The notes under the pieces are model-generated. The model did not search any database. It saw nothing but the letters and a program-made list of their open reading frames with translations, and had not been told where the DNA came from. 64,000 nt of DNA from a virus. Taxonomy: Duplodnaviria > Caudoviricetes. The translations under genes and the position numbers were made by a program. The stretch's first letter is position 1; each line of letters opens with the position of its first letter. The stretch lies in IMG/VR virus record IMGVR_UViG_3300031901_000001, positions 3,303 through 67,302 of that record; one strand, written 5' to 3'. Below, piece after piece: positions 4,085 through 45,486 of this stretch.

Positions 4085-4609
4085 ATGGCGATTATATGGC
4101 CAAAGCCGCTTCCCGCCTGGATTGAAGTGGCGATGAAGTATCGGGGGCTCCGGGAAATTCCGGGTAAGGCCCATGCCCCCAAGATCCAACTAATGCTCAA
4201 GAAACTCAAAGCCTGGTGGTCAGACGATGAGACACCCTGGTGCGGGGTGTTCGTTGGCTTCTGCCTCAAAGAGGTCGGGCTTGCTATCCCTAAGAACTGG
4301 ATGCGAGCTCGTGACTATGAAGGCTGGGGCATCGGTAAGTTGATTGATCCCATCCCGTTCGGTTCGGTATGCACAAAGACTCGAGTTGGTGGCGGTCACG
4401 TATTCTTTGCGGTTGCACAGACCCGTGACGGGCAAACAGTCTTCGGGTTGGGGGGTAATCAATCGAACATGGTCAACATTACGGCCTTCAAGCGGAAAGA
4501 CATCACCGCTGTTCGATGGCCGAGTGATACCTCAGCACCGGTGATGCAACTGCCTTTTGCTACGTCAGCAGAATTAGCAGCTGCATCCATCGGCGGGAGC
4601 GAGGCTTAA
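4085..4609 (+). CDS. Endolysin, TIGR02594-like NlpC/P60/CHAP peptidase
   Basis: [17 protein letters not shown] and GGHVFF..GGNQSN motifs (catalytic Cys/His). Confidence 0.85.
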
Positions 4610-5337
4610 CGAAAATAGTTCTGATCATGGATGCGGCGTAATTCGTCTTGGGTGTAATCACCCCGACGCCTACGTTCTTCATCCCCACTATAGCCTCGCA
4701 TCTCATCAGTGAAGCGAGGTCTGCCCCGTCCCGGGAGTTGTAGTGATCCCATGCGATTTTCGGGCGGGGCTTCTTGCCAATCAAATTCGGGAAGCCTTTT
4801 CAATGTCGCTTCGATCAAGTCGATAGCGACCCCCGCATTTGTAATGATGTCTTTTTGGACATCGATCTCCCTCTCAAAGAAAATTTCCAGAGGATTTTTC
4901 CCTTCACCCTTATAGATCAATCGTGATTTTAATCTTTCCTGGACGGCGATCTCTCTTTCGGCCACAGGGATGCGGTCCCTTTCCGTGTGAAGCTTCCGGT
5001 TCAAGTTCTGAGATATTAACACGAAAGGGCGAGCGTTATTGAGCACCTCGACCCCATTGGTGTTGATCATCTCTTCAAAGCAAACGACAATGAAACGATC
5101 CACCTCTTCCTTGCTTCGTTCCTCCCTCTTGATCTTGCCATTGCGATCATAGTAAGCTCGCTTGTCCTCGTCGATCAAGGTCTCATAGGCTTCATTTAGC
5201 TTAGCGATCTTTTCTTCCGCCTTGGGGTCATCCGGGTTAAGATCGGGATGACACTCCATAGCCTTTCTTCGATAGGCTGACTTAATCTGCCTAATCGTCG
5301 CTGTGGTCTTCACCCCTAACAGCTCATAGAAATTCAT
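4606..5337 (-). CDS. DnaJ (J-domain) protein
   Basis: [38 protein letters not shown]: J-domain with HPD motif. Confidence 0.9.
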
Positions 5338-11251: not shown

Positions 11252-12325
11252 TTAGTCATCGCTGACGCGGTCCGAGGCATCCCGTTTGTGACTTTGGTCC
11301 TCAGCGGTATAGTGAGCCTTGATAACGAAGTCTACATCGTTCCCATGGACTTCCGCTTTGCAGATAGCCTGATAGTCACACATGCGGCAACCCCAACCGA
11401 TAGTCCTTGGTTGATCGCCTCTGTGGAGGTCGTGTATCTCCTTGGCGGTCTGAACAAAGTCATTCCATATGCTATCAACTACTCGAGGACGAACGGGCGC
11501 GAATACGCGGACAAAGCGTGTCGACCGATTTTCTTTTGCGTCAGTCAGCAGCTTTGTATACTGCTTCTTATCATGGCCTTCCTTTTTGATCCAGGCCTTG
11601 ATTGCTGAAGGCAGGGAGTCAATCCTAGCCTGAGATACCTTGCCTGTTTTTGTCAGCATCCCGGGAACCATTAACGGTTTACTGCTGATATAATCCCACA
11701 GGACGCCGTCCAATGAAGGACCCCCAACCATCTCCATTGCACGGATATAGGTAGCGCCTTGGACTGAACGCCAACGGTCTTCTTCGCTCGGTTGACGCTT
11801 AAATGTCTTATGCTCCTCAAGCCACTTGAGTTTATTCGCTTTGACCATCGAGTCTATTCGACCCGTAAACCAAAGCCCGTCCTCGAGCTCTATCCGGAAT
11901 TCATGCTCAGACTTACGACCCTTGAACTCGATAGGCTTGAGGCTTCCCTCGTAGTGATCGAAGTAGTCCTTCATGATAAGGCGGATGTCCTCGATGATGT
12001 CGCCATACATCTCTCGTTCCTTTCGGAACATCTTGCCTTCTTCAAGATCGATTTTCTTCAAGACCTTGAAGGCATCCTGACCCTCGAAATCTGCCTCGAG
12101 CATTTCATGAACAATGCCGCCGAAGGCAAAAGGCCTCCGACGACGCTTGGGAACAATCTGCAAGATATACTTATAGTAGAACATCTTGCGGCACTTACGC
12201 CAGGCGTTTACCTTAGATTGGCTGACATTGATATAGCCTTCGGGGCTGACTATGCTGCCATGGTCGTGACCCGGTGATGCCTTAGGCGTACTCGATTTCG
12301 ATGTCTTTTTGCTTGACTTCGCCAT
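11252..12325 (-). CDS. PD-(D/E)xK exonuclease, Cas4/AddB-like
   Basis: S.SK..AW..C, FG..VHEMLE, GRID..EHKT, C..C.Y..IC Fe-S staple. Confidence 0.85.
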   Translation of the reverse strand: MAKSSKKTSKSSTPKASPGHDHGSIVSPEGYINVSQSKVNAWRKCRKMFYYKYILQIVPKRRRRPFAFGGIVHEMLEADFEGQDAFKVLKKIDLEEGKMFRKEREMYGDIIEDIRLIMKDYFDHYEGSLKPIEFKGRKSEHEFRIELEDGLWFTGRIDSMVKANKLKWLEEHKTFKRQPSEEDRWRSVQGATYIRAMEMVGGPSLDGVLWDYISSKPLMVPGMLTKTGKVSQARIDSLPSAIKAWIKKEGHDKKQYTKLLTDAKENRSTRFVRVFAPVRPRVVDSIWNDFVQTAKEIHDLHRGDQPRTIGWGCRMCDYQAICKAEVHGNDVDFVIKAHYTAEDQSHKRDASDRVSDD

Positions 12326-14852
12326 ATTTCTCAATCCACTTCTCGTAACTGATCCCAGCACCCCAAGGACCTATCGTTCCATCAGCACAGATAGGCACCT
12401 TAAGATCGATTTCAAACTTCTGCAACAGCTCGGGTCCTGACATAATTCTCAGTCCGTGATCCCAAACAGCCTTGACATGATCGTTCCGGACCATCATCAA
12501 GATAGCGTCATGCACAGTCCCGACAATGCGGAATGCTTTCTTCGGGAAGTACTTAGCCATTTCAAGTGCCGCCATGAGGTTGAGCTCATTGGCGAACGAT
12601 TGGACCGGGCTGTTGATCGCCTGACGTTCAGCCTCTCTCCTCTGCGGAGTATCCCTGTGGGACATAGCATGAGGCAGTCGACGTTTACGACCGCTGAGTG
12701 AACGGACATAACCATTGGCGTTTGCGAACCGACGTTGGCGTTTATGCCACTTGGGGAATGCGGGGTAAAGGTCGAAGAATGCGACACGCGATGCTTCGGC
12801 TTCCTTGTCCGTAACTTCAACGCCGTAGTTATCACGTGCATATAGTTTGAACTTCTTCCACCACATGCCGTATAGATAACCGAAGTTGATAGCCTTTGCT
12901 TTCTTGCGATCCTCCTTCCAGTTAACGAAGGCTTCCTTGAGCTGCTTTGTTTCAGTCCAGTGCTTGACAGCATTGACTGCCTCATCGCCACCAATCGACA
13001 GCACATATTCTACTGCCTCATGATACTTCATCTTCTTGTACTTCTTGCCCTCCATTTTGTGGTGGGCTTTGGCAGTCTTTATCATTTCCTTTTTACGACC
13101 ACCACCGCGTTCAATCTCACGGATCGCCGTTTGCCAGTGTGGATCGCCGTCTTCAAAGAAGATCTGTAATAGGTTTTCTTCATTAGCCAACTCAGCTGCA
13201 ATACGCAACTCAATCTGACTAAGATCCATTTCCATTAGTGTCCATCCTTCCGGCGCTGTAATCAGCGTTCGGATGCGTGGGTCACGGGGGACTTGCTGGA
13301 GGTTGGGGTGCTCACAAGATAGCCGCCCAGTAACAGTCCCGTGAAGCTTGAAAACAGGATGAAGATAACCCTCAGTGTCGAGGAAAGGCTTCCACCCTTC
13401 AATGAACCCGGACAGTTGCTTAGTAGCAGCCCTAAACTTAAGAAGGTCGTTGACCATAGGATGATCGATACGAAGCAGTACAGACTCACTGGTCGACTCC
13501 TTTCCACCCTTGGTTTTTTCAACACTCTTTATCTTCAGGACATTGAAAAGAAGGTCAGCGAGTTGATCGCTTGACCCCCAGTTTATTTTCCCAGTCTTTG
13601 CATCGACCTTCTTAGCTTTTGCTGCCCATGGCTCGAGGTTTGTTTGAGCCTTTGACAATTCCTCACGCAGATAGGCTTCAGCATCGTCCATTTGCTTAAG
13701 GTTGATGTAAACGCCTTGGTACTCAGCATTCACGAAGAGTCCCACACAGGGCATCATAATATGCTTGAAGACTCGATTAACTTCGTAATCTTCACTTAGA
13801 CGCTTTGCAAAGATCGGCTTGAGCAACCGGGTGTAGTAAACGTCATGAGCCGCATACTTCGCGTTATCCGGAGACCACTCAGTCTTTTCTTTACCGTCAA
13901 TATCCCAGTCAGGAACACCGAGCTCTTTCTGTGCGAGATATTTCAGACCATGCTGGTCATTCTCATCCAATAGGTAGTGAGCAAGCATGGTGTCGAAATC
14001 GACTTTCCACTTTGCCCCGAACCTCACCTTCATCCACAGGCAGTCGAACTTGCCGTTATGGAAAACAGTGATGCACTTCTTCAGTGCCTTGCTAACTTTT
14101 TTGACTATCCAGCGTAGTCGTTGTTTCGACCATACACCGGCAGTCTCCATGGGCACGACCCATTGACGTTTCCTGCACCCGAACTGCATAGCTACCACTG
14201 CGGGAAGGTTCCCGTTGTGGGTAGCCTTGTGATCCTTGATGTCGTTGGGGGAAGCTTTCTTCGATGCGATTAACTCATCGAGCATCGTCATGAAGGGGTA
14301 GAGTCTCGAGGTTTCAAGGTCAACGGCAACAGTGCCGGTAAGGTCCTTGAGCATTTGTTGCACCTTTTTCTCGGTGTCAACAATAGTGTAGTCTAGTCCC
14401 TTTTCTTCAGGAATACCCCCAAAATCAAGGCACTCTTTCAATCTCCTAACATCACCTTCAATAACGCTTACCCACTTTTCATCGTGGAGTGCATAGTTGG
14501 GATGGTAGATAGGCAGGACAACCCGGCCTTCATGATCGATGGGCTTCCCCCGGAGGTTCCTAATACCACTACGCCCGAGCAACGCCTCACAAGGAGTGTT
14601 GCCCAGGAGTAGCATAAGTTTAGGATCAACTTTCTTGACACGCTTCTGGACCTGTGGGATACGATCCCGAAGCATTGTCTTCGTTACCCGTTTGCCGTCG
14701 GGCAATCCCTCCTCAAGAACATCGGTATATGATAGCTTCTTGGGGTTGAAGCCCGCCTTCACCAAGGCCTCGTTGAGGATCTTCTTGGCCCGGCCGTTCA
14801 TGTCGGGGTCTTGCCCGACAATCATGATGTCTTTTTGTTTTAGTTTCTTCAC
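12282..14852 (-). CDS. polA: Family A DNA polymerase with N-terminal uracil-DNA-glycosylase-like domain and 3'-5' exonuclease
   Basis: GQDP..LLLGN..PIYHPNY (UDG4-like); DLET, HNGKFD, YAAHD (exonuclease); DLSQIELR, KAINFGYLYG, VHD (polymerase motifs A/B/C). Confidence 0.95.
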   Translation of the reverse strand: MKKLKQKDIMIVGQDPDMNGRAKKILNEALVKAGFNPKKLSYTDVLEEGLPDGKRVTKTMLRDRIPQVQKRVKKVDPKLMLLLGNTPCEALLGRSGIRNLRGKPIDHEGRVVLPIYHPNYALHDEKWVSVIEGDVRRLKECLDFGGIPEEKGLDYTIVDTEKKVQQMLKDLTGTVAVDLETSRLYPFMTMLDELIASKKASPNDIKDHKATHNGNLPAVVAMQFGCRKRQWVVPMETAGVWSKQRLRWIVKKVSKALKKCITVFHNGKFDCLWMKVRFGAKWKVDFDTMLAHYLLDENDQHGLKYLAQKELGVPDWDIDGKEKTEWSPDNAKYAAHDVYYTRLLKPIFAKRLSEDYEVNRVFKHIMMPCVGLFVNAEYQGVYINLKQMDDAEAYLREELSKAQTNLEPWAAKAKKVDAKTGKINWGSSDQLADLLFNVLKIKSVEKTKGGKESTSESVLLRIDHPMVNDLLKFRAATKQLSGFIEGWKPFLDTEGYLHPVFKLHGTVTGRLSCEHPNLQQVPRDPRIRTLITAPEGWTLMEMDLSQIELRIAAELANEENLLQIFFEDGDPHWQTAIREIERGGGRKKEMIKTAKAHHKMEGKKYKKMKYHEAVEYVLSIGGDEAVNAVKHWTETKQLKEAFVNWKEDRKKAKAINFGYLYGMWWKKFKLYARDNYGVEVTDKEAEASRVAFFDLYPAFPKWHKRQRRFANANGYVRSLSGRKRRLPHAMSHRDTPQRREAERQAINSPVQSFANELNLMAALEMAKYFPKKAFRIVGTVHDAILMMVRNDHVKAVWDHGLRIMSGPELLQKFEIDLKVPICADGTIGPWGAGISYEKWIEKYGEVKQKDIEIEYA

Positions 14853-15331
14853 GGGTGCTCAACCACCTGTCGAGAAAAGTAATCCACGATGTAACCCGCC
14901 GGTGTCACCTCGAACACAGGGACTTTCTTTTCCCATAACAACTTCAAGGGTGAAGGGTCTCGATAGGCTCGTTCAAAGAATACCCTGCCGATAACCTGGC
15001 TATCGATGATAAGCCTGGCACAATCCTCACAAGGACTATCAGTGCAGTAAAGGTCAAGTCCGCCATTGGGGCAATACCCTACCAGCGACATCGGCAAATG
15101 ACTGATGGCATTACGCTCAGCGTGGGTTGTGCCGCAGCGACCCGGTACTACGCCCGGGCATTCGTTGCCGGCGCAATGCGCTGCTCCAGGTGCTGCACCG
15201 TTCCAGCCGATTGAGACCGGTCGATTGTCATGCGTAATGACGGCGCCAACATTCAACCTCATGCACGTTGATCGCTGGGATGCCAGTCTTGCGATCCCCA
15301 TAAACATCACGGCCCTCGAAATACGTCCCAT
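14849..15331 (-). CDS. dCMP deaminase
   Basis: STC.RL.VGAVI, GWNG, HAE.NA, SPCEDC zinc motifs. Confidence 0.9.
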   Translation of the reverse strand: MGRISRAVMFMGIARLASQRSTCMRLNVGAVITHDNRPVSIGWNGAAPGAAHCAGNECPGVVPGRCGTTHAERNAISHLPMSLVGYCPNGGLDLYCTDSPCEDCARLIIDSQVIGRVFFERAYRDPSPLKLLWEKKVPVFEVTPAGYIVDYFSRQVVEHP

Positions 15332-15380
15332 CTAACCGATCCTTTTCAAGATGTATGCCGCGGCTTTCTTGGAACCTGGC

Positions 15381-15419
15381 AGAGAGAAACCCCAGCGAGC
15401 CTTGAATAGCTCGCTGAGG
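15381..15419 (-). terminator. Probable terminator
   Basis: Minus strand CTCAGCGAGC-TATTCAAG-GCTCGCTGGG followed by TTTCTCTCT. Confidence 0.55.
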
Positions 15420-15441
15420 CAAACCCAACGGATCAGGAGTC

Positions 15442-16329
15442 TCACCGGCTGAGCCCCCAAAGTTGAAGGTAGTCATTCTTGAACATATGCAGGGAACCGA
15501 TCTGCATGTAGAAGTTCCCCAGCTTGAGGGGCTCATCTCGTCCCAGACTATGTAGTCTATCTGCCACCCATTGAACGAGACGGAGGGTGAGGAACAGGTC
15601 GTCACGGAAGTGTCGGACGAAGTCACAGGACCGGATATGATAATTAATGTGCATACGGCCATCGCGGACAAGGAAATGGTACCCAATAGTGCAAGGCGCG
15701 CGCTTGCTACCACCGCCCGTGTCTTCAGGGAACCATATGGGCAAATAGGCCTGTCGAGTGAGTTCATCACCTGCAAGAAGTTCGACCACGTCATTGAGGT
15801 CTCCATACTCGTACTTGATACCATGATGAGGACGAGGCATCACACCGCCGTTACTGTCACGATATTCATGGAGAGGGCCCATGATCTGCTCAGGCTCTCG
15901 GGTAGCATTGGCTATGAAGCCTGCGTATTTCGGCCAGTACCGCTCCATGTAGTTATGATTGAACTTGCCATTATCATCAAGGAAGGTTGAGGCCTTGTTA
16001 CCGTAGGGCCACTTGGACCATTGAACACCAGGATTGACGGGATACCCACAGACTCGTTCCCAAAAATGCTCCTCAGCCCAAGGCATATTAGGTTCAATAT
16101 CGCTGACTGCATTGTTCATCGCATCAGCAAGACCATGAACTCCTCGGTCATACTTCGACATCTCAACCCCAAAGGAACAGTTCGCTACTTCGAAGGTAGC
16201 CATCTCCGGCATTTTGGAGATGTCGGTCCCCTGCCATCGAGAGGTATGAACAACACTGCTGCGATACCTCAACCAGTGCGCTGCCTGGTCGATGCACTGC
16301 TTGAAATCAATATATAGCTGAGGCTTCAC
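15442..16329 (-). CDS. Thymidylate-synthase-fold enzyme 1, cytosine-type (putative dCMP C5-modifying enzyme)
   Basis: TRQA, APC, RSCDFVRHFRDD, GSLHMF; Asp at the ThyA N177 / T4 gp42 D179 position. Confidence 0.85.
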   Translation of the reverse strand: MKPQLYIDFKQCIDQAAHWLRYRSSVVHTSRWQGTDISKMPEMATFEVANCSFGVEMSKYDRGVHGLADAMNNAVSDIEPNMPWAEEHFWERVCGYPVNPGVQWSKWPYGNKASTFLDDNGKFNHNYMERYWPKYAGFIANATREPEQIMGPLHEYRDSNGGVMPRPHHGIKYEYGDLNDVVELLAGDELTRQAYLPIWFPEDTGGGSKRAPCTIGYHFLVRDGRMHINYHIRSCDFVRHFRDDLFLTLRLVQWVADRLHSLGRDEPLKLGNFYMQIGSLHMFKNDYLQLWGLSR

Positions 16330-17150
16330 TTGCTGTCCCCCTTCTTCTCAACATAGGCGTTCCGATGGCCAGGATGATTGTCCCGAAGATATTTCGTAAG
16401 CTTCTTTCGCTTCTTCCCCGTAATCATTTTGTCTGCTGTTTCCTTGACCTTCATAGCTTGAGCGAACTTCTCGATCCCGCGAAAATGCTCATCGCATAAG
16501 TATCGAGCTGTCCATTTTATCCACCAGTCAAAGAAGTGCCGGTCTTTTTCCCTGAGTTTATTTAATTTATCCTCCCACCCTTTCCAGTGAGCTATTGCGG
16601 TTGCGGCATATTGAGGATGAATAGTAACATTTGCAAAGTGACAAGTCATCCCCATAAATTCCATGCCCGAGAAGTCAAATCCGTCTAGCAGGATGTCTCG
16701 AATAAACACGAGGTCGGCGGGGAATTTCTTGAACAGCTCTGTGGTCCTATAGAATACATCGATCTTATACGCTTTCTTGCTCAGCTGAGTGATAACGACC
16801 GACTGAATGCAAGGCCCCATGACTGAGGCCCGCTTCGACTTCTTCACGATGTCATTCTTGAGGAAGTGATTGTAGGTGGTAAATCCCACAGAGCCGTAGG
16901 AGGGTTTCTTGCGACGTTCTTCCCAGAGCTTAAGAGCTGCGGCCTTCGACTCGGGATGAAGGTATCCCTTGATCAATAGGCCGAGCTTGTTGCGGGTATA
17001 TCCGCAGTCAGCTAGCGTGAGAGGGTCGTCCTCGTCCCATAAGTCGTAGAATACAAGCTTTCGGGTTTCTAGGATTTTCCTAGCCCCCGAGAATAAGTCA
17101 GCCTTCATCAAAGAAAGCCTAAAACAATGATCAAGCCATTCTTTTTTCAA
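16326..17150 (-). CDS. Highly divergent thymidylate-synthase-fold protein 2
   Basis: GPCIQSVVI..FYRTTELFKKFPAD: Cys-to-Arg spacing 21 and Asp at Arg+11, as in the TS fold. Confidence 0.65.
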   Translation of the reverse strand: MKKEWLDHCFRLSLMKADLFSGARKILETRKLVFYDLWDEDDPLTLADCGYTRNKLGLLIKGYLHPESKAAALKLWEERRKKPSYGSVGFTTYNHFLKNDIVKKSKRASVMGPCIQSVVITQLSKKAYKIDVFYRTTELFKKFPADLVFIRDILLDGFDFSGMEFMGMTCHFANVTIHPQYAATAIAHWKGWEDKLNKLREKDRHFFDWWIKWTARYLCDEHFRGIEKFAQAMKVKETADKMITGKKRKKLTKYLRDNHPGHRNAYVEKKGDSK

Positions 17151-17632
17151 GTGAGCCTCCGCTTCATGTATTTATAAATAGCCTTTATTTCTTCAAGGGA
17201 GGCGTCCGACTTAAGGCGATTAGCCCGCCAGCTTATTACTTCGACATTGCCCTTGATGTATCCTTTTGAGGTATCCACCCTGTCAAGAGTGGGTGAACCG
17301 TCTTTAACTGTTCTTGATCCCATCACTATAGGAATACCCAAAACGGGGCATACTTTCGGTATTTGAATGTCTTTCTCAGTGATGGTTACAGGCCAACCCC
17401 TTTTGTTGGCTAATCGAATTAAAGACTTTTCGGGGTTTTTTCTCCTCCAGGATTTGGCTTTCTTTTGGATTGTTATCTTATCCTTAGGTTGGCTATCCCT
17501 GTCCTTAATACATAATACACATCCGCCTTTAACTTTTCTTTTAGCGATGTGCCCCCGTTTACAGGGCTTACCGGTGAAGTAATAGTCTTCACCGTTATTG
17601 ATAGCCTTTCGTCTTAATCCCGGAGGAGGCAT
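17147..17632 (-). CDS. HNH-type homing endonuclease
   Basis: FTGKPCKRGH N-terminus; CPVLGIPI..PTLDRVD..GYIKGNVEVISWRAN. Confidence 0.8.
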   Translation of the reverse strand: MPPPGLRRKAINNGEDYYFTGKPCKRGHIAKRKVKGGCVLCIKDRDSQPKDKITIQKKAKSWRRKNPEKSLIRLANKRGWPVTITEKDIQIPKVCPVLGIPIVMGSRTVKDGSPTLDRVDTSKGYIKGNVEVISWRANRLKSDASLEEIKAIYKYMKRRLT

Positions 17633-17647
17633 TAGTATTCCCCGCTG

Positions 17648-18421
17648 TTACTGAGCTGTGTTTATATCAGTAATGTCACCCAAGTTCAACGCCGGTTTAT
17701 GAGCATGATCTCGTACCAGGTCCCGGTGATCCGGCTCAATCCAGCCTTCCGGTTTAACTACATCAAAGGTCGATCCCCGCTTTGACTCCTCGGGCTTCTC
17801 AGCACGCTTCTTTAGCATATTCGCCCTGTGGACTCGGCGCCATGCTTCTTTGAAAATACGAGGACCGAATTGAAGGTAGGCCGTACCGAGTTTGACATAA
17901 ACGCCGTCGACCAGTGCGTCGAGCTGTTTATGTAGTCCCTCGACAATGCCCTCGTCATCCTCTGTCTCGGCAGCGATGACAAGGGCCTCTCCCTCTTCTT
18001 GATATTCGTCGGTCTCCTCCCGGTCAAACAGGATGCGGAAATCCGCTAAGTCCTGACCGACATCATCAAGAACTCCGTTCAACAATCGGGGTTTGCCGTG
18101 ATAGCCCAAGTCGAATTTCTCATGGAAACCAACGATGTCGCCCATCATGTCGACCGGTAAGTCTTGGGGGTCGATGCCGAGCGCAAGTTCAACGGTGGTC
18201 GACAACGCCTCAAGGGCAATGATGGTGTTCTTGTCAACACCGACACGATAGTTGTCCCCGTGCGCGTGAGCAGCCTTACGCATGGAGACAAGCAAGGTGA
18301 TGAATTCTGTTGCTTCATCCTTATGGAACTTAATATGAAGGAACTCTGCGGGGTTTCCTTCCCGGTCAGTGAAGGCGACCAGGCGATCCCCGACTTCAAT
18401 GGTTTCAATATCCAAAATCAT
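17648..18421 (-). CDS. All-alpha NTP pyrophosphatase (MazG/DR2231-like) with extra N-terminal domain; possible dCTPase/dUTPase
   Basis: EETDEY..QLDALVDGVYV..G..W..VH.ANM.K. Confidence 0.8.
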   Translation of the reverse strand: MILDIETIEVGDRLVAFTDREGNPAEFLHIKFHKDEATEFITLLVSMRKAAHAHGDNYRVGVDKNTIIALEALSTTVELALGIDPQDLPVDMMGDIVGFHEKFDLGYHGKPRLLNGVLDDVGQDLADFRILFDREETDEYQEEGEALVIAAETEDDEGIVEGLHKQLDALVDGVYVKLGTAYLQFGPRIFKEAWRRVHRANMLKKRAEKPEESKRGSTFDVVKPEGWIEPDHRDLVRDHAHKPALNLGDITDINTAQ

Positions 18422-18912
18422 TCTCCCTTCGTGCGAGCTTCAAAGAATATAACTGTATCGATCAATGCATCCATGTCGTCTCCAATGCGATAGACGAAGT
18501 GAGCATGCTCCGCCGCCCATTGGCGATATAGGTAGAGAAGTTTGTTGTAATTGTTTTCGACATCGGAGAGATGCTTCTCCGTGTCATGATCCTTGACCAC
18601 GTGGCCACCGAGACCCCTGATGCCCGCATCGCAATAGATAATGATTGGGCGGCTCTCATAAAAGAGTCCAGTGCGTCCTGGAGTGATCGGATTTCCTTCG
18701 ACCCTAACAGCTCCATAGATAGCGTTGGAAATAACAGGGTGTCTGACAAAGACCGTGTCTTTGAGGTCATGGTAGCGATCCACTCTTTCATTAATTTCTT
18801 TGTCTGACAAGGGAGGTCCTTCACTCTCTTGCACGAGACGATTGAGCGCGTTGGCAAGATGGATACCCAAGGTACTCTTACCACTGTTGTCCATACCTTC
18901 TATCACGATCAT
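18418..18912 (-). CDS. Deoxynucleoside monophosphate kinase (P-loop)
   Basis: MIVIEGMDNSGKSTL; VRHP.IS..IYG (thymidylate-kinase-like). Confidence 0.85.
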   Translation of the reverse strand: MIVIEGMDNSGKSTLGIHLANALNRLVQESEGPPLSDKEINERVDRYHDLKDTVFVRHPVISNAIYGAVRVEGNPITPGRTGLFYESRPIIIYCDAGIRGLGGHVVKDHDTEKHLSDVENNYNKLLYLYRQWAAEHAHFVYRIGDDMDALIDTVIFFEARTKGE

Positions 18913-18942: not shown

Positions 18943-18971
18943 TTGACGCGGTCAACAAACGGTGTTAGTAA
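18943..18971 (+). promoter_or_regulatory. Sigma70-like promoter toward the primase operon
   Basis: TTGACG-N17-TAGTAA; the -35 lies inside palindrome GTTGACGCGGTCAAC. Confidence 0.5.
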
Positions 18972-18993
18972 GTCTTTTCCGGCTCAATGTCAA
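18965..18993 (-). promoter_or_regulatory. Divergent sigma70-like promoter toward the modification/replication operon
   Basis: Minus strand TTGACA-N17-TACTAA. Confidence 0.55.
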
Positions 18994-19015
18994 CCGCCGG
19001 TATCGTCGGGGTTTT

Positions 19016-19480
19016 ATGAAACTTGAAGATTACTACACCGCCAAAGAGGCGGCGGCAGTTATGTCGATTGAGTATAAAACATTCCTTATGAGAGTTTCAC
19101 GGGGGAAAATAAAAGTAGCTCGAATTGGACCGATGATCTTTGTGGAGAAAACTGTTATCCACAGTCTCCTCGATGATCAGGATAATGGGGAACCTCCCAT
19201 TCGAGACCATCCACTCTACGGTCTCTATCGGGGGATGATCAGCAGGTGTGAAAACCCCAAAGCCAACGCTTATCATCGATATGGAGGCCGAGGGATTAAG
19301 GTTTGCAAGCGTTGGAGAGACGATTTCAAGGCATTTGTTGAGGACGTGGGCAAGCGCCCCAGCAAGAAACATTCTCTAGATCGTTACCCTAATCCCGATG
19401 GTGACTATGAGCCGAGTAACACTCGGTGGGCAACTTCAAAACAACAAAGAGCAAATCTTTCTAAGGGGTTGTCCAAGTGA
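19016..19480 (+). CDS. Excisionase-type HTH fused to HNH endonuclease
   Basis: YTAKEAA.VM..; Y..M..RC.N...Y..YGGRGIKVC..W..F..F..D; SLDR..N.DGDYEPSN.RWAT. Confidence 0.85.
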   Translation: MKLEDYYTAKEAAAVMSIEYKTFLMRVSRGKIKVARIGPMIFVEKTVIHSLLDDQDNGEPPIRDHPLYGLYRGMISRCENPKANAYHRYGGRGIKVCKRWRDDFKAFVEDVGKRPSKKHSLDRYPNPDGDYEPSNTRWATSKQQRANLSKGLSK

Positions 19481-38174: not shown

Positions 38175-38413
38175 ACGGTAAGCCTGACTTCGATTTGTAC
38201 TCAGGCGTAGGAGTTAGCCCGACGATACGCGATCAGGCCTTGCAGGACGATCATTACCAAGGATCATTCAGCGACTATGGTGACGCTCATGCTGAGGCGT
38301 CCAGGTTGCGCTCGGGCGGCGACATCGACTGGTTTGTCATCATGCACGGGCAAACGAACTACGCCGGGTGGCAGAGTGGCCTCACCGGACCTCGTCAACG
38401 TCAAGGGGCTTAA
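38159..38413 (+). CDS. Hypothetical protein
   Basis: SD AAGGAG. Confidence 0.6.
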   Translation: MANYINGKPDFDLYSGVGVSPTIRDQALQDDHYQGSFSDYGDAHAEASRLRSGGDIDWFVIMHGQTNYAGWQSGLTGPRQRQGA

Positions 38414-38414
38414 G

Positions 38415-39317
38415 ATGAAGATAACGCGGGTTATGAAGGGGGAACTGATCGAGGATTATACCAAGATCAAATTTCCCGTGCTTGCTTCACCAAAGATTGA
38501 TGGCTTCCGTTGCGTCGTAGGATCACAGGCCTACACTAGTCGGATGGGACGATTTCCCAACAAGAAAGTCCATAAAGCTCTCAAAGACTTGTTGACTGAT
38601 GAGACGCCTATTGACGGCGAAATCGTGGTGGGTAAGCGTAGGGGCCCCGGAGTTCTACAACGAACCTCATCGGGGGTTACCTCAGAGAGCGGTGATCCGG
38701 ACTGGCGCCTGTGGGTATTCGATGCTCCTCGTGAGGGTGTCAGCAAGCTTAATCGACTAAAGCTAGCCGCTAAGTCTGTAAAGGCTTTAGGCGATAAGCG
38801 CATCCGTTTTCTCAAGCATGAAGTTATCCACAATATCGAGGAATTGAAGGAGTACATTGAAGCTTGCTTGAAATCGGGATTTGAGGGGGTCATGATCAGT
38901 GATCCCGAGGGTCCCTATAAACAGGGCAAGTCTACGCTTCGCCAAGGTTGGTTACTCAAGATTAAACCCTTTGAGACCAGCGAAGCCAAGATTACCGGTT
39001 ACTTCGAGGAGATGGAGAATACCAATGAGCAAACGAGGGACGCGACAGGCAAGGCGAAACGCTCTTCGAAAAAGGAAGGTAAAAAACCAAAAGGCACTCT
39101 TGGTGGCTTCATCGGAACCGACATCCACACTGGCCAACCTGTTCGGTGTGGAGGTGGATTTTCTGCGGCACAGCGTAAAGCCTTTTGGCGAGTAAAGGAT
39201 AGGCTTGTTCGGGACGGTGAAATCTTCACCTACTCGAAACAATCGACAGGAGAAAAGGATGCACCGCGTCATCCTAACTTCTGTCACCTTCGTCCCGGCT
39301 GGGATATTGACAAGTGA
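38415..39317 (+). CDS. ATP-dependent DNA ligase
   Basis: SPKIDGFR (motif I), IDGEI, WVFD, GFEGVM, LLKIK, PRHP. Confidence 0.92.
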   Translation: MKITRVMKGELIEDYTKIKFPVLASPKIDGFRCVVGSQAYTSRMGRFPNKKVHKALKDLLTDETPIDGEIVVGKRRGPGVLQRTSSGVTSESGDPDWRLWVFDAPREGVSKLNRLKLAAKSVKALGDKRIRFLKHEVIHNIEELKEYIEACLKSGFEGVMISDPEGPYKQGKSTLRQGWLLKIKPFETSEAKITGYFEEMENTNEQTRDATGKAKRSSKKEGKKPKGTLGGFIGTDIHTGQPVRCGGGFSAAQRKAFWRVKDRLVRDGEIFTYSKQSTGEKDAPRHPNFCHLRPGWDIDK

Positions 39318-43510: not shown

Positions 43511-44455
43511 TTACAACTTGCGGATGTCCAATGCCCGCTCGCCCGGTATCAGCTTACGATGCTGAACCCACCCGTAAAGGTTCCCGTGAAGCAGAGGCTG
43601 TTCCCAATGGCCTTCATCCTCGTCTTCGATCCAACGATCAGGAGTGCACTGATGCTCGGACGGGGTTGCATGAGGAGGAGTGTCAGTGATCAGTCGATCA
43701 TACCGAGCGAACTCATCTGATAGCTTATCGCTCCCGTCGAAAGGCTTGTAGGAAAGTCGAGCACAACGAGCAGTCGATAGCTTGAGCGCTTCTTCAAGGG
43801 TCAGGCTATATCGTTTGCCTTCAGCATCGCTTGTCCAGAACAGCTGCTTGTCACGAACCCGAGTCCAATGGACATAAGGCATATGCCACTCACCCGGACG
43901 CAAAAGCTGAGGAGTCGAGTCCGCCAAAGCCTTGTTCATCATTGCAGCCATTGTCTGCAACTCAGGCTGAGCGGCACTGTGGATACGAAGGTTCCAGAAG
44001 TTCTGCAGGTTTGTTGAGGTGATCAGTACATCGATCCAGCCAAACCACTCGAGAGGACGATTTGCCCACTGTTTGTGAACACCCAGTTCATGAAGTTTCT
44101 CGACTTCAGCCTGAGTATGACGAGCAAGATCATACCAGATCTTTTCAGCAAGCTTTCTTGCGGGCTCGGGCATTTCTTGTAAGGCTTGCATCCCGGGCTG
44201 GTTCTGCATGAAGTGAGGCATGAAAGGGTCTTCAGCCAATAGCTTCACGGTGGGGACTGCACGACTGCTCCTCGCATTTCGGCTGAAGTCCCTGTGGGTC
44301 ATCACTTCGGCATGGATCGGCCGCCAATAACGAGCATGCCAAGTCGGGAGCCTTATCCCATCGGGACTGATGCTATCAGCGATAATCTTAACCTCAGCCG
44401 GTACTTCATTGTAGAGCATACCGGCGGGGATCGTATCAAAACCTCCAAAGGTCAT
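43511..44455 (-). CDS. thyX: Flavin-dependent thymidylate synthase
   Basis: HAEVMTHRDFSRNARSSRA (RHRx7S-type), HKQWANR.LE, HSAAQPE, CARLSY. Confidence 0.88.
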   Translation of the reverse strand: MTFGGFDTIPAGMLYNEVPAEVKIIADSISPDGIRLPTWHARYWRPIHAEVMTHRDFSRNARSSRAVPTVKLLAEDPFMPHFMQNQPGMQALQEMPEPARKLAEKIWYDLARHTQAEVEKLHELGVHKQWANRPLEWFGWIDVLITSTNLQNFWNLRIHSAAQPELQTMAAMMNKALADSTPQLLRPGEWHMPYVHWTRVRDKQLFWTSDAEGKRYSLTLEEALKLSTARCARLSYKPFDGSDKLSDEFARYDRLITDTPPHATPSEHQCTPDRWIEDEDEGHWEQPLLHGNLYGWVQHRKLIPGERALDIRKL

Positions 44456-45036: not shown

Positions 45037-45486
45037 TCACTCTATAGCGTTATGTCGAAGACGCTTGCCTCGACATTCAGGACCGAAACCTTCTTGCACA
45101 CTGATAGGATCGGTCAATTTCCTTCCACACATGCCACACTTGCCTGTATGATACAGCTCAGCGTCCTGTGGAAGTCTTCCTTTATCAACGATGTCCTTTA
45201 GCCACACGAATGCAGCGAAGGCGTCATGTCGGTATAGGTAGGCAGGAACTTTCTTGTCTTTGTCGAACTTCCCTTGACGATTGATATGGCCGATGTAGTG
45301 CCAATTGCTTTGACCGCCGAGGAAGACGACATAGTAGATGTCTTCCTTTTTCTTAATCTTGTAGGTGAAGTGCTTCCCGGTCTTCTGGGACTTCAAGGAG
45401 AACACGGCCTTTCCGGCAAGCATGAACTCCTTGAAAGTTTTGGCTGACAGGAACGGCATGCTGAACGTCGAGGCCGGGAACATCAC
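45037..45486 (-). CDS. DUF6011-like protein with C-terminal Zn motif
   Basis: CGMCGRKLTDPISV..GFGPEC. Confidence 0.8.
   Translation of the reverse strand: MMFPASTFSMPFLSAKTFKEFMLAGKAVFSLKSQKTGKHFTYKIKKKEDIYYVVFLGGQSNWHYIGHINRQGKFDKDKKVPAYLYRHDAFAAFVWLKDIVDKGRLPQDAELYHTGKCGMCGRKLTDPISVQEGFGPECRGKRLRHNAIE

What the first reader, a model, noticed from the sequence alone, without database searches (positions are those of the whole stretch)
14849..18912. Candidate novel cytosine-modification gene cluster (two cytosine-type TS paralogues, kinase, NTP-PPase, deaminase) next to a UDG-PolA
Seen: one leftward operon encodes dNMP kinase, a MazG/DR2231-like pyrophosphatase, an HNH, two TS-fold proteins, dCMP deaminase and then the polymerase. 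Established: in the TS fold, the residue 11 positions after the RS-motif Arg sets base specificity (Asn177 in E. coli ThyA = dUMP; Asp179 in T4 gp42 = dCMP). Both paralogues have Asp here (RSCDFVRHFRD-D; RTTELFKKFPA-D). The kinase plus pyrophosphatase mirrors the T4 logic (gp1 kinase, gp56 dCTPase) for replacing dCTP with a modified dCTP. TS1 has His where ThyA/gp42 have Gly (RHF vs LGL/FGF), so its chemistry may differ from plain methyl/hydroxymethyl transfer. No glycosyltransferase or TET/MTase is recognisable in the window, so any second step would be of an unfamiliar type.
Basis: partly seen in the sequence, partly recalled or inferred. Interest (0 to 1): 0.88.

Follow-up and report, generated by a model that had tools for sequence, protein, structure and literature searches.

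The report
Two-TS-fold phage cytosine modification cassette
This soil phage carries a tightly packed, widely conserved gene cassette that most likely replaces ordinary cytosine in its DNA with a chemically altered cytosine. The cassette holds a nucleotide kinase, a pyrophosphatase, two linked thymidylate-synthase-shaped enzymes and a deaminase, and the second of the two enzymes belongs to an unstudied, phage-only family, so the final chemical product is unknown.

Summary
Window 14849-18912 (minus strand) encodes a Tmk-like kinase, a MazG/DR2231-like NTP pyrophosphatase, an inserted HNH endonuclease, two TS-fold proteins (TS2 then TS1, 4-nt overlap) and a dCMP deaminase, and runs into a UDG-like PolA. 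Both TS proteins keep the catalytic Cys and an Asp at the E. coli N177 position.

ThyX is also present in 4 of 4 complete relatives, so dTMP supply is covered and TS1/TS2 must do something else.

TS1 is gp42-like: no C-terminal tail, and it keeps the folate Trp pair and the Arg matching T4 R177. Its C5 pocket is lined by invariant His/Arg instead of Ser/Asp/Gly.

TS2 matches no Pfam family. Its model has a TS fold, nearest to the flavin dCMP hydroxylase AfhB, and lacks the folate-binding segment. In 54 of 55 IMG/VR loci TS2 sits directly upstream of TS1.

Published MetaGPA work already links TS(Asp177) + PRA-PH + deaminase + PolA neighbourhoods to cytosine-modified phage DNA, so the cassette type is known. 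The obligate second TS-fold enzyme and the product are not.

This scan found the same pair before on three other genomes. Verdict: new variant of a known kind; chemistry unresolved.

The parts
18418..18912 (-). Tmk-like dNMP kinase (164 aa)
   Evidence: phrog_761 thymidylate kinase, E 3.9e-8. P-loop GMDNSGKST. NCBIfam dTMP kinase hits lie far below cut-off. Present in 43 of 55 related loci at this position. Overlaps the PPase start by 4 nt.
17648..18421 (-). MazG/DR2231-like all-alpha NTP pyrophosphatase (257 aa). The C-terminal ~160 aa form the catalytic domain; the N-terminal ~90 aa are unassigned.
   Evidence: phrog_671 nucleotide pyrophosphohydrolase, E 7e-14. Weak PDB matches 3nl9 and DR2231, E 0.09-0.23. 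No Pfam or NCBIfam hit. Present in 45 of 55 related loci.
17147..17632 (-). HNH homing-type endonuclease, inserted between the PPase and TS2
   Evidence: phrog_3322 E 6e-31 and phrog_1035 E 1e-23. No homologue at this position in any of 55 related loci. The closest relative, L011, has only a 196-bp gap here.
16326..17150 (-). TS2: divergent TS-fold protein (274 aa). Residues 1-190 form the TS core and lack the folate-binding segment; residues 190-262 are an extra helical domain, followed by a basic tail.
   Evidence: No Pfam or NCBIfam hit. AF2 pLDDT 87.9. Foldseek and VIA give Z 13.2 to 9iqu (AfhB dCMP hydroxylase), 12.2 to MilA and about 10.5 to ThyA. C114 and D146 are invariant, and R135 and E138 nearly invariant, in 69 diverse relatives. 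903 homologues in metagenomes. Found only in phages and phage contigs.
15442..16329 (-). TS1: gp42-like TS homologue (295 aa) with Asp at N177, no C-terminal tail and a His/Arg-lined C5 pocket
   Evidence: PF00303 24.9 bits. hhalign 93% to E. coli ThyA and 91% to T4 gp42. Residue equivalences: C213=C146, R233=R166, D236=D169, H240=G173, R242=T4 R177, D244=N177, R210=L143/T4 D145, H125=T4 S94, Y127=Y94, W104/W107=W80/W83. Its GTG start overlaps the TS2 stop (GTGA).
14849..15331 (-). dCMP/dCTP-type zinc deaminase (160 aa)
   Evidence: PF00383 E 1e-16. phrog_174 E 9e-38. HAE and PCEDC motifs. Present in 52 of 55 related loci.
12282..14852 (-). Family A DNA polymerase with 3'-5' exonuclease and an N-terminal family-4-UDG-like domain
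   Evidence: PF00476 E 3e-69, PF01612 E 3e-18, PF03167 E 1e-9. The N-terminal 160 aa match T. thermophilus UDG 1ui0, E 3.6e-5, with HPNY at motif B. Present in 52 of 55 related loci.
11252..12361 (-). PD-(D/E)XK (Cas4/RecB-like) nuclease, a conserved downstream neighbour
   Evidence: PF12705 E 8e-14. Present in 49 of 55 loci.
43511..44455 (-). ThyX, flavin-dependent thymidylate synthase (314 aa). It lies outside the cassette and is the phage's own dTMP synthase.
   Evidence: PF02511 25.4 bits against a cut-off of 24.8. phrog_85 E 4.6e-76. ThyX is present in 4 of 4 relatives that are at least 90% complete, and inside the cassette in MW202777 and MW202455.

Best explanation
The cassette is a nucleotide-level pathway that feeds the phage polymerase a C5-substituted dCTP in place of dCTP. 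Every step below is inferred, not shown.
1. The MazG-like pyrophosphatase turns dCTP into dCMP. This removes the canonical precursor and supplies the substrate.
2. TS1 is a folate-dependent, non-reductive (gp42-type) enzyme. Cys213 attacks C6 of dCMP, Asp244 reads and protonates N3/N4, CH2-THF donates a methylene, and the exocyclic methylene is trapped by water or another nucleophile. The basic pocket of His125, Arg210, Arg239 and His240 would guide that step. The product would be 5-hydroxymethyl-dCMP or a 5-(X-methyl) derivative.
3. TS2 is obligately co-encoded and translationally coupled to TS1. It keeps the Cys nucleophile, the phosphate Arg and the cytosine-reading Asp but has lost the folate segment. 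It either forms a hetero-oligomer with TS1 or carries out a second Cys-dependent step on the C5-substituted dCMP. I put these at roughly even odds.
4. The Tmk-like kinase phosphorylates the product, host NDP kinase completes the triphosphate, and PolA incorporates it.
5. The deaminase and ThyX supply dTMP separately.
For: Residues and fold.
- TS1 aligns with ThyA and gp42 with every catalytic residue in register and Asp at N177, invariant in 41 homologues.
- TS1 ends about 10 residues after the SLH(M/V)(F/Y) motif, as gp42 does. It keeps the Arg (R242) that in T4 dCH binds the folate glutamate tail in place of the C-terminus (PMC6400193).
- The folate Trp pair and Tyr94 are conserved in TS1.
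- TS2 has a TS fold. C114 and D146 are invariant across 22-50% identity, which argues for a working active site.

Gene context.
- 54 of 55 TS2 loci have TS1 immediately downstream, and 27 of these show the exact 4-nt overlap. The deaminase and PolA are each in 52 of 55 loci.
- The same pair is found in Serratia, Yersinia, Pseudomonas and Brevundimonas phages.
- ThyX is in this genome and in 4 of 4 complete relatives, so TS1/TS2 are not needed for dTMP.
- There is no phage DHFR, which fits a non-reductive reaction that regenerates THF.

Literature.
- On metavirome contigs selected for modified cytosine, 70% of dCMP deaminases lie within 3 kb of a TS. The corresponding figure for unmodified contigs is 6%.
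- PRA-PH and DNA_pol_A are among the top co-localised domains, and most of those TS carry Asp177 (10.1101/2024.12.05.627091; PMC8670742).
Against: - There are no chemical data for this phage or any cultured relative. The papers on Serbin, P744 and PMBT14 say nothing on DNA modification.
- The residues that T4 dCH uses to position the hydrating water (S94, D145) are replaced by His and Arg in TS1, so hydroxymethylation itself is not assured.
- TS2's residue equivalences rest on spacing and an insignificant profile alignment, not on a superposition.
- The pyrophosphatase and kinase specificities are unknown, and both score far below any curated family threshold.
- In the published screen, five of seven deaminase-linked TS homologues made 5-methyl-dCMP, not 5hm-dCMP.
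Confidence: 0.55

Rival explanations
1. This is an XP12/PaMx74-type 5-methylcytosine phage. TS1 (with TS2) reductively methylates dCMP to 5-methyl-dCMP, and the adjacent deaminase is 5mC-selective and makes dTTP from 5m-dCTP.
For: The PPase-TS-deaminase order matches PaMx74. Five of seven deaminase-linked Asp177 TS homologues tested made 5mdCMP, and such deaminases prefer 5mC nucleotides.
Against: TS1 is only 22% identical to the PaMx74 enzyme over 130 residues. It lacks the long ThyA-type C-terminal tail that PaMx74 keeps and that seals the site for hydride transfer. PaMx74 encodes a DHFR, but this phage has none. A 5mdCTP-to-dTTP route would make ThyX redundant, yet ThyX is conserved. PaMx74 has no TS2-like gene in the cassette.
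Confidence: 0.15
2. The cassette manipulates the nucleotide pool and does not modify DNA. It would boost or rebalance dNTP supply, or counter host dCTP-deaminase or dNTPase defences, with TS1/TS2 acting as redundant or regulatory nucleotide-binding proteins.
For: The kinase, pyrophosphatase, deaminase and ThyX are all ordinary nucleotide-metabolism types. No downstream hypermodification enzyme was found.
Against: Two TS-fold proteins with an invariant catalytic Cys and the dCMP-type Asp have no role in canonical dNTP synthesis. The domain combination is enriched on cytosine-modified contigs.
Confidence: 0.1
3. This is a thymine-side modification. TS1 makes 5hm-dCMP, the adjacent deaminase converts it to 5hm-dUMP, and 5hmU partly replaces T. 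The UDG-like PolA polices plain dU.
For: Deaminases from this gene context deaminate 5hmdC nucleotides to 5hmdU in vivo. [quoted passage not shown]
Against: The conserved ThyX makes ordinary dTMP. No 5-HMUDK or aGPT-Pplase type gene was seen among the ORFs scanned. The published UDG-PolA clades (SPO1-like, SP15-like) are much larger enzymes in other phage groups, and membership was not tested.
Confidence: 0.07
4. TS1 is simply a divergent thymidylate synthase acting on dUMP, TS2 is a decayed duplicate, and the DNA is canonical.
For: Public records annotate TS1 homologues as thymidylate synthase. A dCMP deaminase next door would supply dUMP.
Against: Asp, not Asn, is at position 177 in all family members. 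ThyX is already present. TS2 is the most conserved gene of the cassette, with median identity 51.5% against 44-48% for its neighbours, and keeps an invariant Cys and Asp, so it is not decaying.
Confidence: 0.05

Closest known systems
Phage T4 dC-to-5hmC pathway (gp56 dCTPase/dUTPase, gp42 dCMP hydroxymethylase, gp1 dNMP kinase, cd dCMP deaminase, td)
   Same: The set of activities is the same. TS1 shares Asp at N177, the missing C-terminal tail, the F-R-x-D helix start with the glutamate-tail Arg, and the Cys-Thr after the nucleophile.
   Different: - The proteins are not orthologous: a MazG-like PPase replaces gp56, a Tmk-like kinase replaces gp1, and ThyX replaces td.
- The genes are clustered in one operon.
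- T4 S94, D145 and G175 are His, Arg and His in TS1.
- T4 has no TS2, and no glucosyltransferase is found here.
Xanthomonas phage XP12 / Pseudomonas phage PaMx74 5-methyl-dCMP synthase cassette
   Same: The PPase-TS(Asp177)-deaminase order near the replication genes is the same (10.1101/2024.12.05.627091).
   Different: The PaMx74 TS keeps the ThyA C-terminal tail and sits next to a DHFR. It shares 22% identity with TS1. There is no TS2 and no ThyX in its cassette.
Flavin-dependent 5-hydroxy-dCMP synthases (HY126 AfhB, PDB 9iqu/9iqc; RB69 gp48; DLP3 gp80)
   Same: These are the best structural matches of both TS2 (Z 13.2) and TS1 (Foldseek rank 1-2). They are compact TS folds acting on dCMP with Asp at N177 (PMC13326640).
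   Different: The diagnostic D169N substitution is absent: TS1 has Asp236 and TS2 has Glu138. No arabinosyl- or glycosyltransferase genes were found. Cofactor use cannot be tested here.
MetaGPA-defined 'modified-cytosine' neighbourhoods (Thymidylat_synt + PRA-PH + dCMP_cyt_deam_1/MafB19-deam + DNA_pol_A)
   Same: The domain combination and order are identical to this window.
   Different: Those studies were Pfam-based. TS2 matches no Pfam family, and in the passages read no second TS-fold gene is mentioned. The product was assigned only for a few tested TS homologues.
MilA, CMP 5-hydroxymethylase of mildiomycin biosynthesis (PDB 5b6d/5jp9)
   Same: It is the second-best structural match of TS2 (Z 12.2) and a high match of TS1. 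It is a cytosine-nucleotide-specific TS homologue.
   Different: MilA is a bacterial secondary-metabolism enzyme acting on CMP. It keeps the folate site and shows no sequence-level similarity to TS2.

Membership tests
Thymidylate synthase / pyrimidine hydroxymethylase superfamily (PF00303, TS fold) | TS alpha/beta fold | tested here: met
   TS1: 396 PDB hits with E<=1e-3, and every hit listed is a TS-family enzyme. TS2: Z 10-13 to AfhB, MilA and ThyA over residues 1-190.
Thymidylate synthase / pyrimidine hydroxymethylase superfamily (PF00303, TS fold) | Catalytic Cys (E. coli C146) and phosphate-binding Arg166, 20-21 residues later | tested here: met
   TS1 has C213 and R233, both invariant. 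TS2 has C114 invariant and R135 conserved in at least 90% of 69 relatives. The TS2 register is inferred from spacing and secondary structure.
Thymidylate synthase / pyrimidine hydroxymethylase superfamily (PF00303, TS fold) | Score over Pfam's gathering threshold | tested here: inconclusive
   TS1 scores 24.9 bits against 24.3, so it passes only just. TS2 has no hit at E<=0.01, and its profile-profile links to ThyA, gp42 and TS1 are insignificant.
Canonical dTMP synthase (ThyA) | Asn at position 177 (dUMP specificity) and a C-terminal tail closing the active site | tested here: not met
   Both proteins have Asp at this position. TS1 ends shortly after the SLHMF motif. TS2 has an unrelated helical C-terminus.
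T4-type dCMP hydroxymethylase (gp42) | Asp179, no C-terminal tail, and Arg177 binding the folate glutamate tail | tested here: met
   This holds for TS1 only: D244, R242 and a short C-terminus (features taken from PMC6400193).
T4-type dCMP hydroxymethylase (gp42) | Polar Ser94/Asp145 pair that positions the hydrating water, and Gly175 | tested here: not met
   TS1 has His125, Arg210 and His240 at these positions. His125 is at least 90% conserved; the other two are invariant.
5-methyl-dCMP synthase (XP12/PaMx74 type) | Asp177 together with a ThyA-like C-terminal tail for reductive methyl transfer | tested here: not met
   Asp is present, but the tail is absent from TS1 while PaMx74 ThyA keeps it. 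Identity is 22%.
5-hydroxy-dCMP synthase (AfhB / RB69 gp48) | D169N together with N177D | tested here: not met
   TS1 has D236 and TS2 has E138 at position 169. The signature is from PMC13326640.
5-hydroxy-dCMP synthase (AfhB / RB69 gp48) | Flavin (FMN/FAD) cofactor in place of folate | not testable with these tools
   Only the fold resemblance is known, with TS2 Z 13.2 to 9iqu.
MazG / all-alpha NTP pyrophosphohydrolase | Match to a curated family model or a solved member | tested here: inconclusive
   phrog_671 E 7e-14. There is no Pfam or NCBIfam hit, and the PDB matches DR2231 and 3nl9 reach only E 0.09-0.23.
dCMP/cytidine deaminase (PF00383) | Pfam threshold and the zinc motifs H-A-E and P-C-x-x-C | tested here: met
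   60.9 bits against a cut-off of 25. The motifs HAERNA and PCEDC are present. Substrate preference (dCMP versus 5m/5hm-dC nucleotides) was not tested.
ThyX (PF02511) | Pfam threshold | tested here: met
   25.4 bits against 24.8, backed by phrog_85 E 4.6e-76. The NCBIfam thyX equivalog is not reached, at 31 bits against 87.9.

The most novel reading that the evidence does not exclude
TS1 and TS2 together form a two-component TS-fold enzyme system. It installs a C5 substituent on dCMP that is not methyl, hydroxymethyl or hydroxyl, for example a 5-(X-methyl) group made when the exocyclic methylene is captured by a nucleophile other than water. This would give a new non-canonical base in a widespread group of phages of soil, water and enteric bacteria.
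Probability: 0.2. Interest if true: 0.85.

Novelty: new variant of a known kind. Interest (0 to 1): 0.62.

Why it matters
- Non-canonical bases in phage DNA decide whether restriction enzymes, CRISPR nucleases and sequencing chemistries can act on it. The enzymes that make them have repeatedly become biotechnology tools.
- This cassette is common: 903 TS2 and 3714 TS1 homologues in metagenomes, at least 55 IMG/VR loci, and cultured phages of Serratia, Yersinia, Pseudomonas and Brevundimonas, probably also of Gordonia.
- Its most conserved gene, TS2, matches no curated family and has no assigned reaction.
- Pfam-based surveys cannot detect TS2. Assays that express only the annotated TS from such clusters may therefore miss a required partner.
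- Cultured relatives exist, so one nucleoside LC-MS run and one co-expression assay would answer the question.

Tried and rejected
- Complex prediction of TS1 + TS2: the verdict was 'no answer'. It is not used for or against binding.
- Fused TS2-TS1 proteins: a search among longer proteins found none (weak evidence). P0229, a 387-aa TS1 relative, is not a TS2 fusion.
- Sequence-level link of TS2 to TS: PDB profile search and hhalign against ThyA, gp42 and TS1 were all insignificant. Only the fold comparison links them.
- Sequencing runs: two rhizosphere metagenomes held as contigs, one probably the source. No RNA holder is listed and there are no raw or long reads, so signs of modification in reads could not be sought.
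- Palindrome avoidance as a proxy for unmodified DNA. The window shows depletion, for example GTAC 72 observed against 163 expected. The modified-DNA controls PaMx74 (5mC) and T4 show depletion by the same measure, so the statistic does not discriminate and was dropped.
- Megablast of the cassette against 50,697 phage records gave no near-identical record.
- The literature on cultured relatives (Serbin, Opt-155/Tlacuache, P744, PMBT14) gives no information on DNA modification. The DLP1/DLP2 paper turned out to concern phages without a TS.
- A profile from the diverse TS2 alignment A3 was too variable for a locus scan, so A2 was used.
- A weak DHFR-like hit of 16.6 bits in a 63-aa frame was dismissed.

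Full report
**What is there.**
- The window is bases 3303-67302 of a 67,302-bp IMG/VR virus record with direct terminal repeats. It was recovered from rhizosphere metagenomes.
- On the minus strand between 18912 and 11252 lies one tightly packed operon:

| Coordinates | Gene |
|---|---|
| 18418-18912 | kinase |
| 17648-18421 | NTP pyrophosphatase |
| 17147-17632 | HNH endonuclease |
| 16326-17150 | TS2 |
| 15442-16329 | TS1 |
| 14849-15331 | dCMP deaminase |
| 12282-14852 | UDG-like/exo/PolA |
| 11252-12361 | PD-(D/E)XK nuclease |

- Kinase/PPase, HNH/TS2, TS2/TS1 and deaminase/PolA each overlap by 4 nt.
- Only the deaminase and the polymerase clear curated thresholds comfortably. TS1 passes Pfam by 0.6 bits. 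The kinase and pyrophosphatase are recognised only by PHROG profiles. TS2 is recognised by nothing sequence-based.

**The two TS-fold proteins: TS1.**
- TS1 aligns with E. coli ThyA (hhalign 93%) and T4 gp42 (91%).
- The register is C213=C146, R233=R166, S234/C235/D236=S167/C168/D169, H240=G173, R242=P175 (T4 R177) and D244=N177. All of these residues are invariant in 41 homologues.
- A MAFFT alignment with homologues from Brevundimonas, Serratia, Yersinia and Gordonia phages shows the same R-S-C-D-x-x-R-H-x-x-D-D signature throughout.
- It also shows that the whole family, like gp42, lacks the ThyA C-terminal tail. The 5mC-making PaMx74 enzyme keeps that tail.
- TS1 retains Glu47 (E58), Trp104/Trp107 (W80/W83) and Tyr127 (Y94), so use of CH2-THF is plausible.
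- The T4 dCH structure paper (PMC6400193) assigns Arg177 to binding the folate glutamate tail in the absence of the C-terminus. It assigns Ser94, Tyr96 and Asp145 to the hydrating water.
- TS1 keeps the Arg and the Tyr but has His125 and Arg210 in place of Ser94 and Asp145. It also has Arg239-His240 where T4 has Phe-Gly.
That is the best reason to suspect chemistry beyond plain hydroxymethylation.

**The two TS-fold proteins: TS2.**
- TS2 was modelled at pLDDT 87.9.
- Foldseek and VIA-align return only TS-family enzymes. The best is the flavin-dependent dCMP hydroxylase AfhB (9iqu: Z 13.2, rmsd 3.8 Å over 181 residues). MilA follows at Z 12.2 and ThyA at about 10.5.
- The match covers residues 1-190. 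Residues 190-262 are an added helical domain. The segment that carries W80, W83 and Y94 in ThyA is missing (secondary structure).
- In 69 relatives of 22-50% identity only K55, L59, Y63, C114 and D146 are invariant. S87, R135, E138 and F143 are nearly so.
- C114, R135, E138 and D146 have the same spacing as C146, R166, D169 and N177, and sit on the same secondary-structure elements.
- The only profile alignments, though insignificant, are in this register. I therefore accept the Asp equivalence as inferred.
- Conservation of the nucleophile and the base-reading Asp argues that TS2 is an enzyme rather than a decayed copy. It is in fact the most conserved gene of the cassette.

**Context.**
- A scan of IMG/VR with TS2 gave 55 loci. 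TS1 lies immediately downstream in 54, and the exception is cut by the contig end. The deaminase and PolA are each in 52, the nuclease in 49, the PPase in 45 and the kinase in 43. A divergently transcribed primase-helicase is in 45.
- Half of the pairs show the exact 4-nt stop/start overlap.
- The HNH is at this position in none of the 55 loci, so it is a mobile insertion.
- The same kinase-PPase-TS2-TS1-(ThyX)-deaminase-PolA-nuclease order occurs in Brevundimonas phages Strzyga and Polewnik, two Manatee Spring viruses, Serratia phage Serbin and Yersinia phage P744. Pseudomonas phage PMBT14 carries both TS1 and a TS2 structural homologue, but its gene order was not read.
- Gordonia phage Troje probably carries it too. 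Its upstream 305-aa protein matches the TS2 profile at 69% probability.
- In 185,579 prokaryote genomes TS2 was found only on four MAG contigs that look like binned phage DNA.

**A dedicated thymidylate synthase elsewhere.**
- The phage encodes a ThyX at 43511-44455.
- ThyX is present in 4 of 4 cassette-bearing relatives that are at least 90% complete, and inside the cassette in two public phage genomes.
- With the deaminase this gives a complete dCMP to dUMP to dTMP route. TS1 and TS2 must serve another purpose.
- No DHFR, Tet/JBP, C5-MTase, carbamoyltransferase or GT2 gene was detected in the genome. About 30 further ORFs gave no relevant Pfam hit.

**Literature.**
- NEB's MetaGPA studies report that the Thymidylat_synt domain is the one most associated with cytosine-modified metavirome contigs (eLife PMC8670742; bioRxiv 10.1101/2024.12.05.627091).
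- Positions 177 and 147 discriminate modified from unmodified contigs.
- On modified contigs dCMP deaminases co-localise with TS, PRA-PH, DNA_pol_A and its exonuclease. That is exactly the layout seen here.
- Five of seven tested TS homologues from such loci made 5mdCMP.
- The 2026 NAR paper on 5-hydroxycytosine (PMC13326640) defines D169N as the signature of flavin-dependent 5hodCMP synthases. Neither TS1 (Asp) nor TS2 (Glu) has it.
- In the passages of these papers that I read, no second TS-fold gene paired with the annotated TS is mentioned.
- The cassette type is therefore known, but TS2, the TS1 subfamily and the product are not.

**Interpretation.**
- The most likely reading (0.55) is a T4-style replacement of dCTP by a C5-substituted dCTP at the nucleotide level. 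TS1 would be the folate-dependent, non-reductive one-carbon transferase. TS2 would be an obligatory partner, either a hetero-oligomer subunit or a second-step enzyme.
- Rival readings are an XP12-like 5mC pathway (0.15), pool manipulation without modification (0.10), a 5hmU route through deamination (0.07) and plain dTMP synthesis (0.05).
- None of this can be settled without chemistry. The decisive experiments are simple because cultured relatives exist.

**Earlier notes of this scan.** The same TS2/TS1 pair was reported on three other genomes (e1-5361404, e1-3285435, e1-5933013), with conclusions that agree with mine. A note on this genome (e1-5940399) suggests that TS2 acts on DNA. The retained mononucleotide-type Arg, Cys and Asp constellation makes a free-nucleotide substrate more likely, although the basic C-terminal tail leaves that idea open.

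Noticed in passing
window 43511-44455 (-): A 314-aa ThyX (phrog_85 E 4.6e-76; Pfam just over threshold) lies far from the cassette, next to a DUF6011 protein (45037-45486). It has a longer N-terminus than typical ThyX, because the match starts at residue ~21-45.
   Followed up: partly
window 17147-17632 (-) and 18962-19480 (+): Two different HNH endonuclease genes flank the kinase-PPase pair. The first splits the PPase from TS2 and is absent at this site from all 55 related loci, so it behaves like a recent homing-endonuclease insertion.
   Followed up: partly
window 12282-14852 (-), N-terminal 160 aa: The PolA N-terminus matches family-4 UDG (T. thermophilus 1ui0, E 3.6e-5) with HPNY at motif B. 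Whether it is catalytically active, or belongs to the published N4-like (inactive) or SPO1/SP15-like (active) UDG-PolA groups, was not determined.
   Followed up: partly
whole window: GTAC is strongly under-represented (72 observed against 163 expected from a maximal-order Markov model, z about -10). CGATCG (10 against 34), GGATCC (3 against 15) and ACGCGT (0 against 7) are also depleted, and GANTC occurs at about half the base-composition expectation.
   Followed up: partly
window 38277-39317 (+): An ATP-dependent DNA ligase (phrog_114 E 3e-49). The DNA ligase domain is another of those that MetaGPA found enriched on cytosine-modified contigs.
   Followed up: no
window 4606-5337 (-): A 243-aa protein with an N-terminal DnaJ (J) domain (PF00226, E 2e-23) lies in the leftward operon downstream of the replication genes.
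   Followed up: no
window 15228-15824 (-): A 198-aa ORF in another frame overlaps the 3' part of TS1 and the TS1-deaminase spacer. It has no family hit and is probably not a gene.
   Followed up: partly
L066-L069 (genome contigs): TS2-bearing contigs are binned into MAGs labelled Phenylobacterium, candidate division WWE3 and Gammaproteobacteria. One is 42,669 bp, the same length as the IMG/VR viral contig of L027. These look like phage contigs swept into bacterial bins.
   Followed up: no
P0229 (387-aa TS1 homologue on a 1.6-kb contig): A TS1 relative about 90 residues longer than the family norm, with extra sequence inside the protein. It could be an insertion (intein or endonuclease) or an assembly artefact.
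   Followed up: partly
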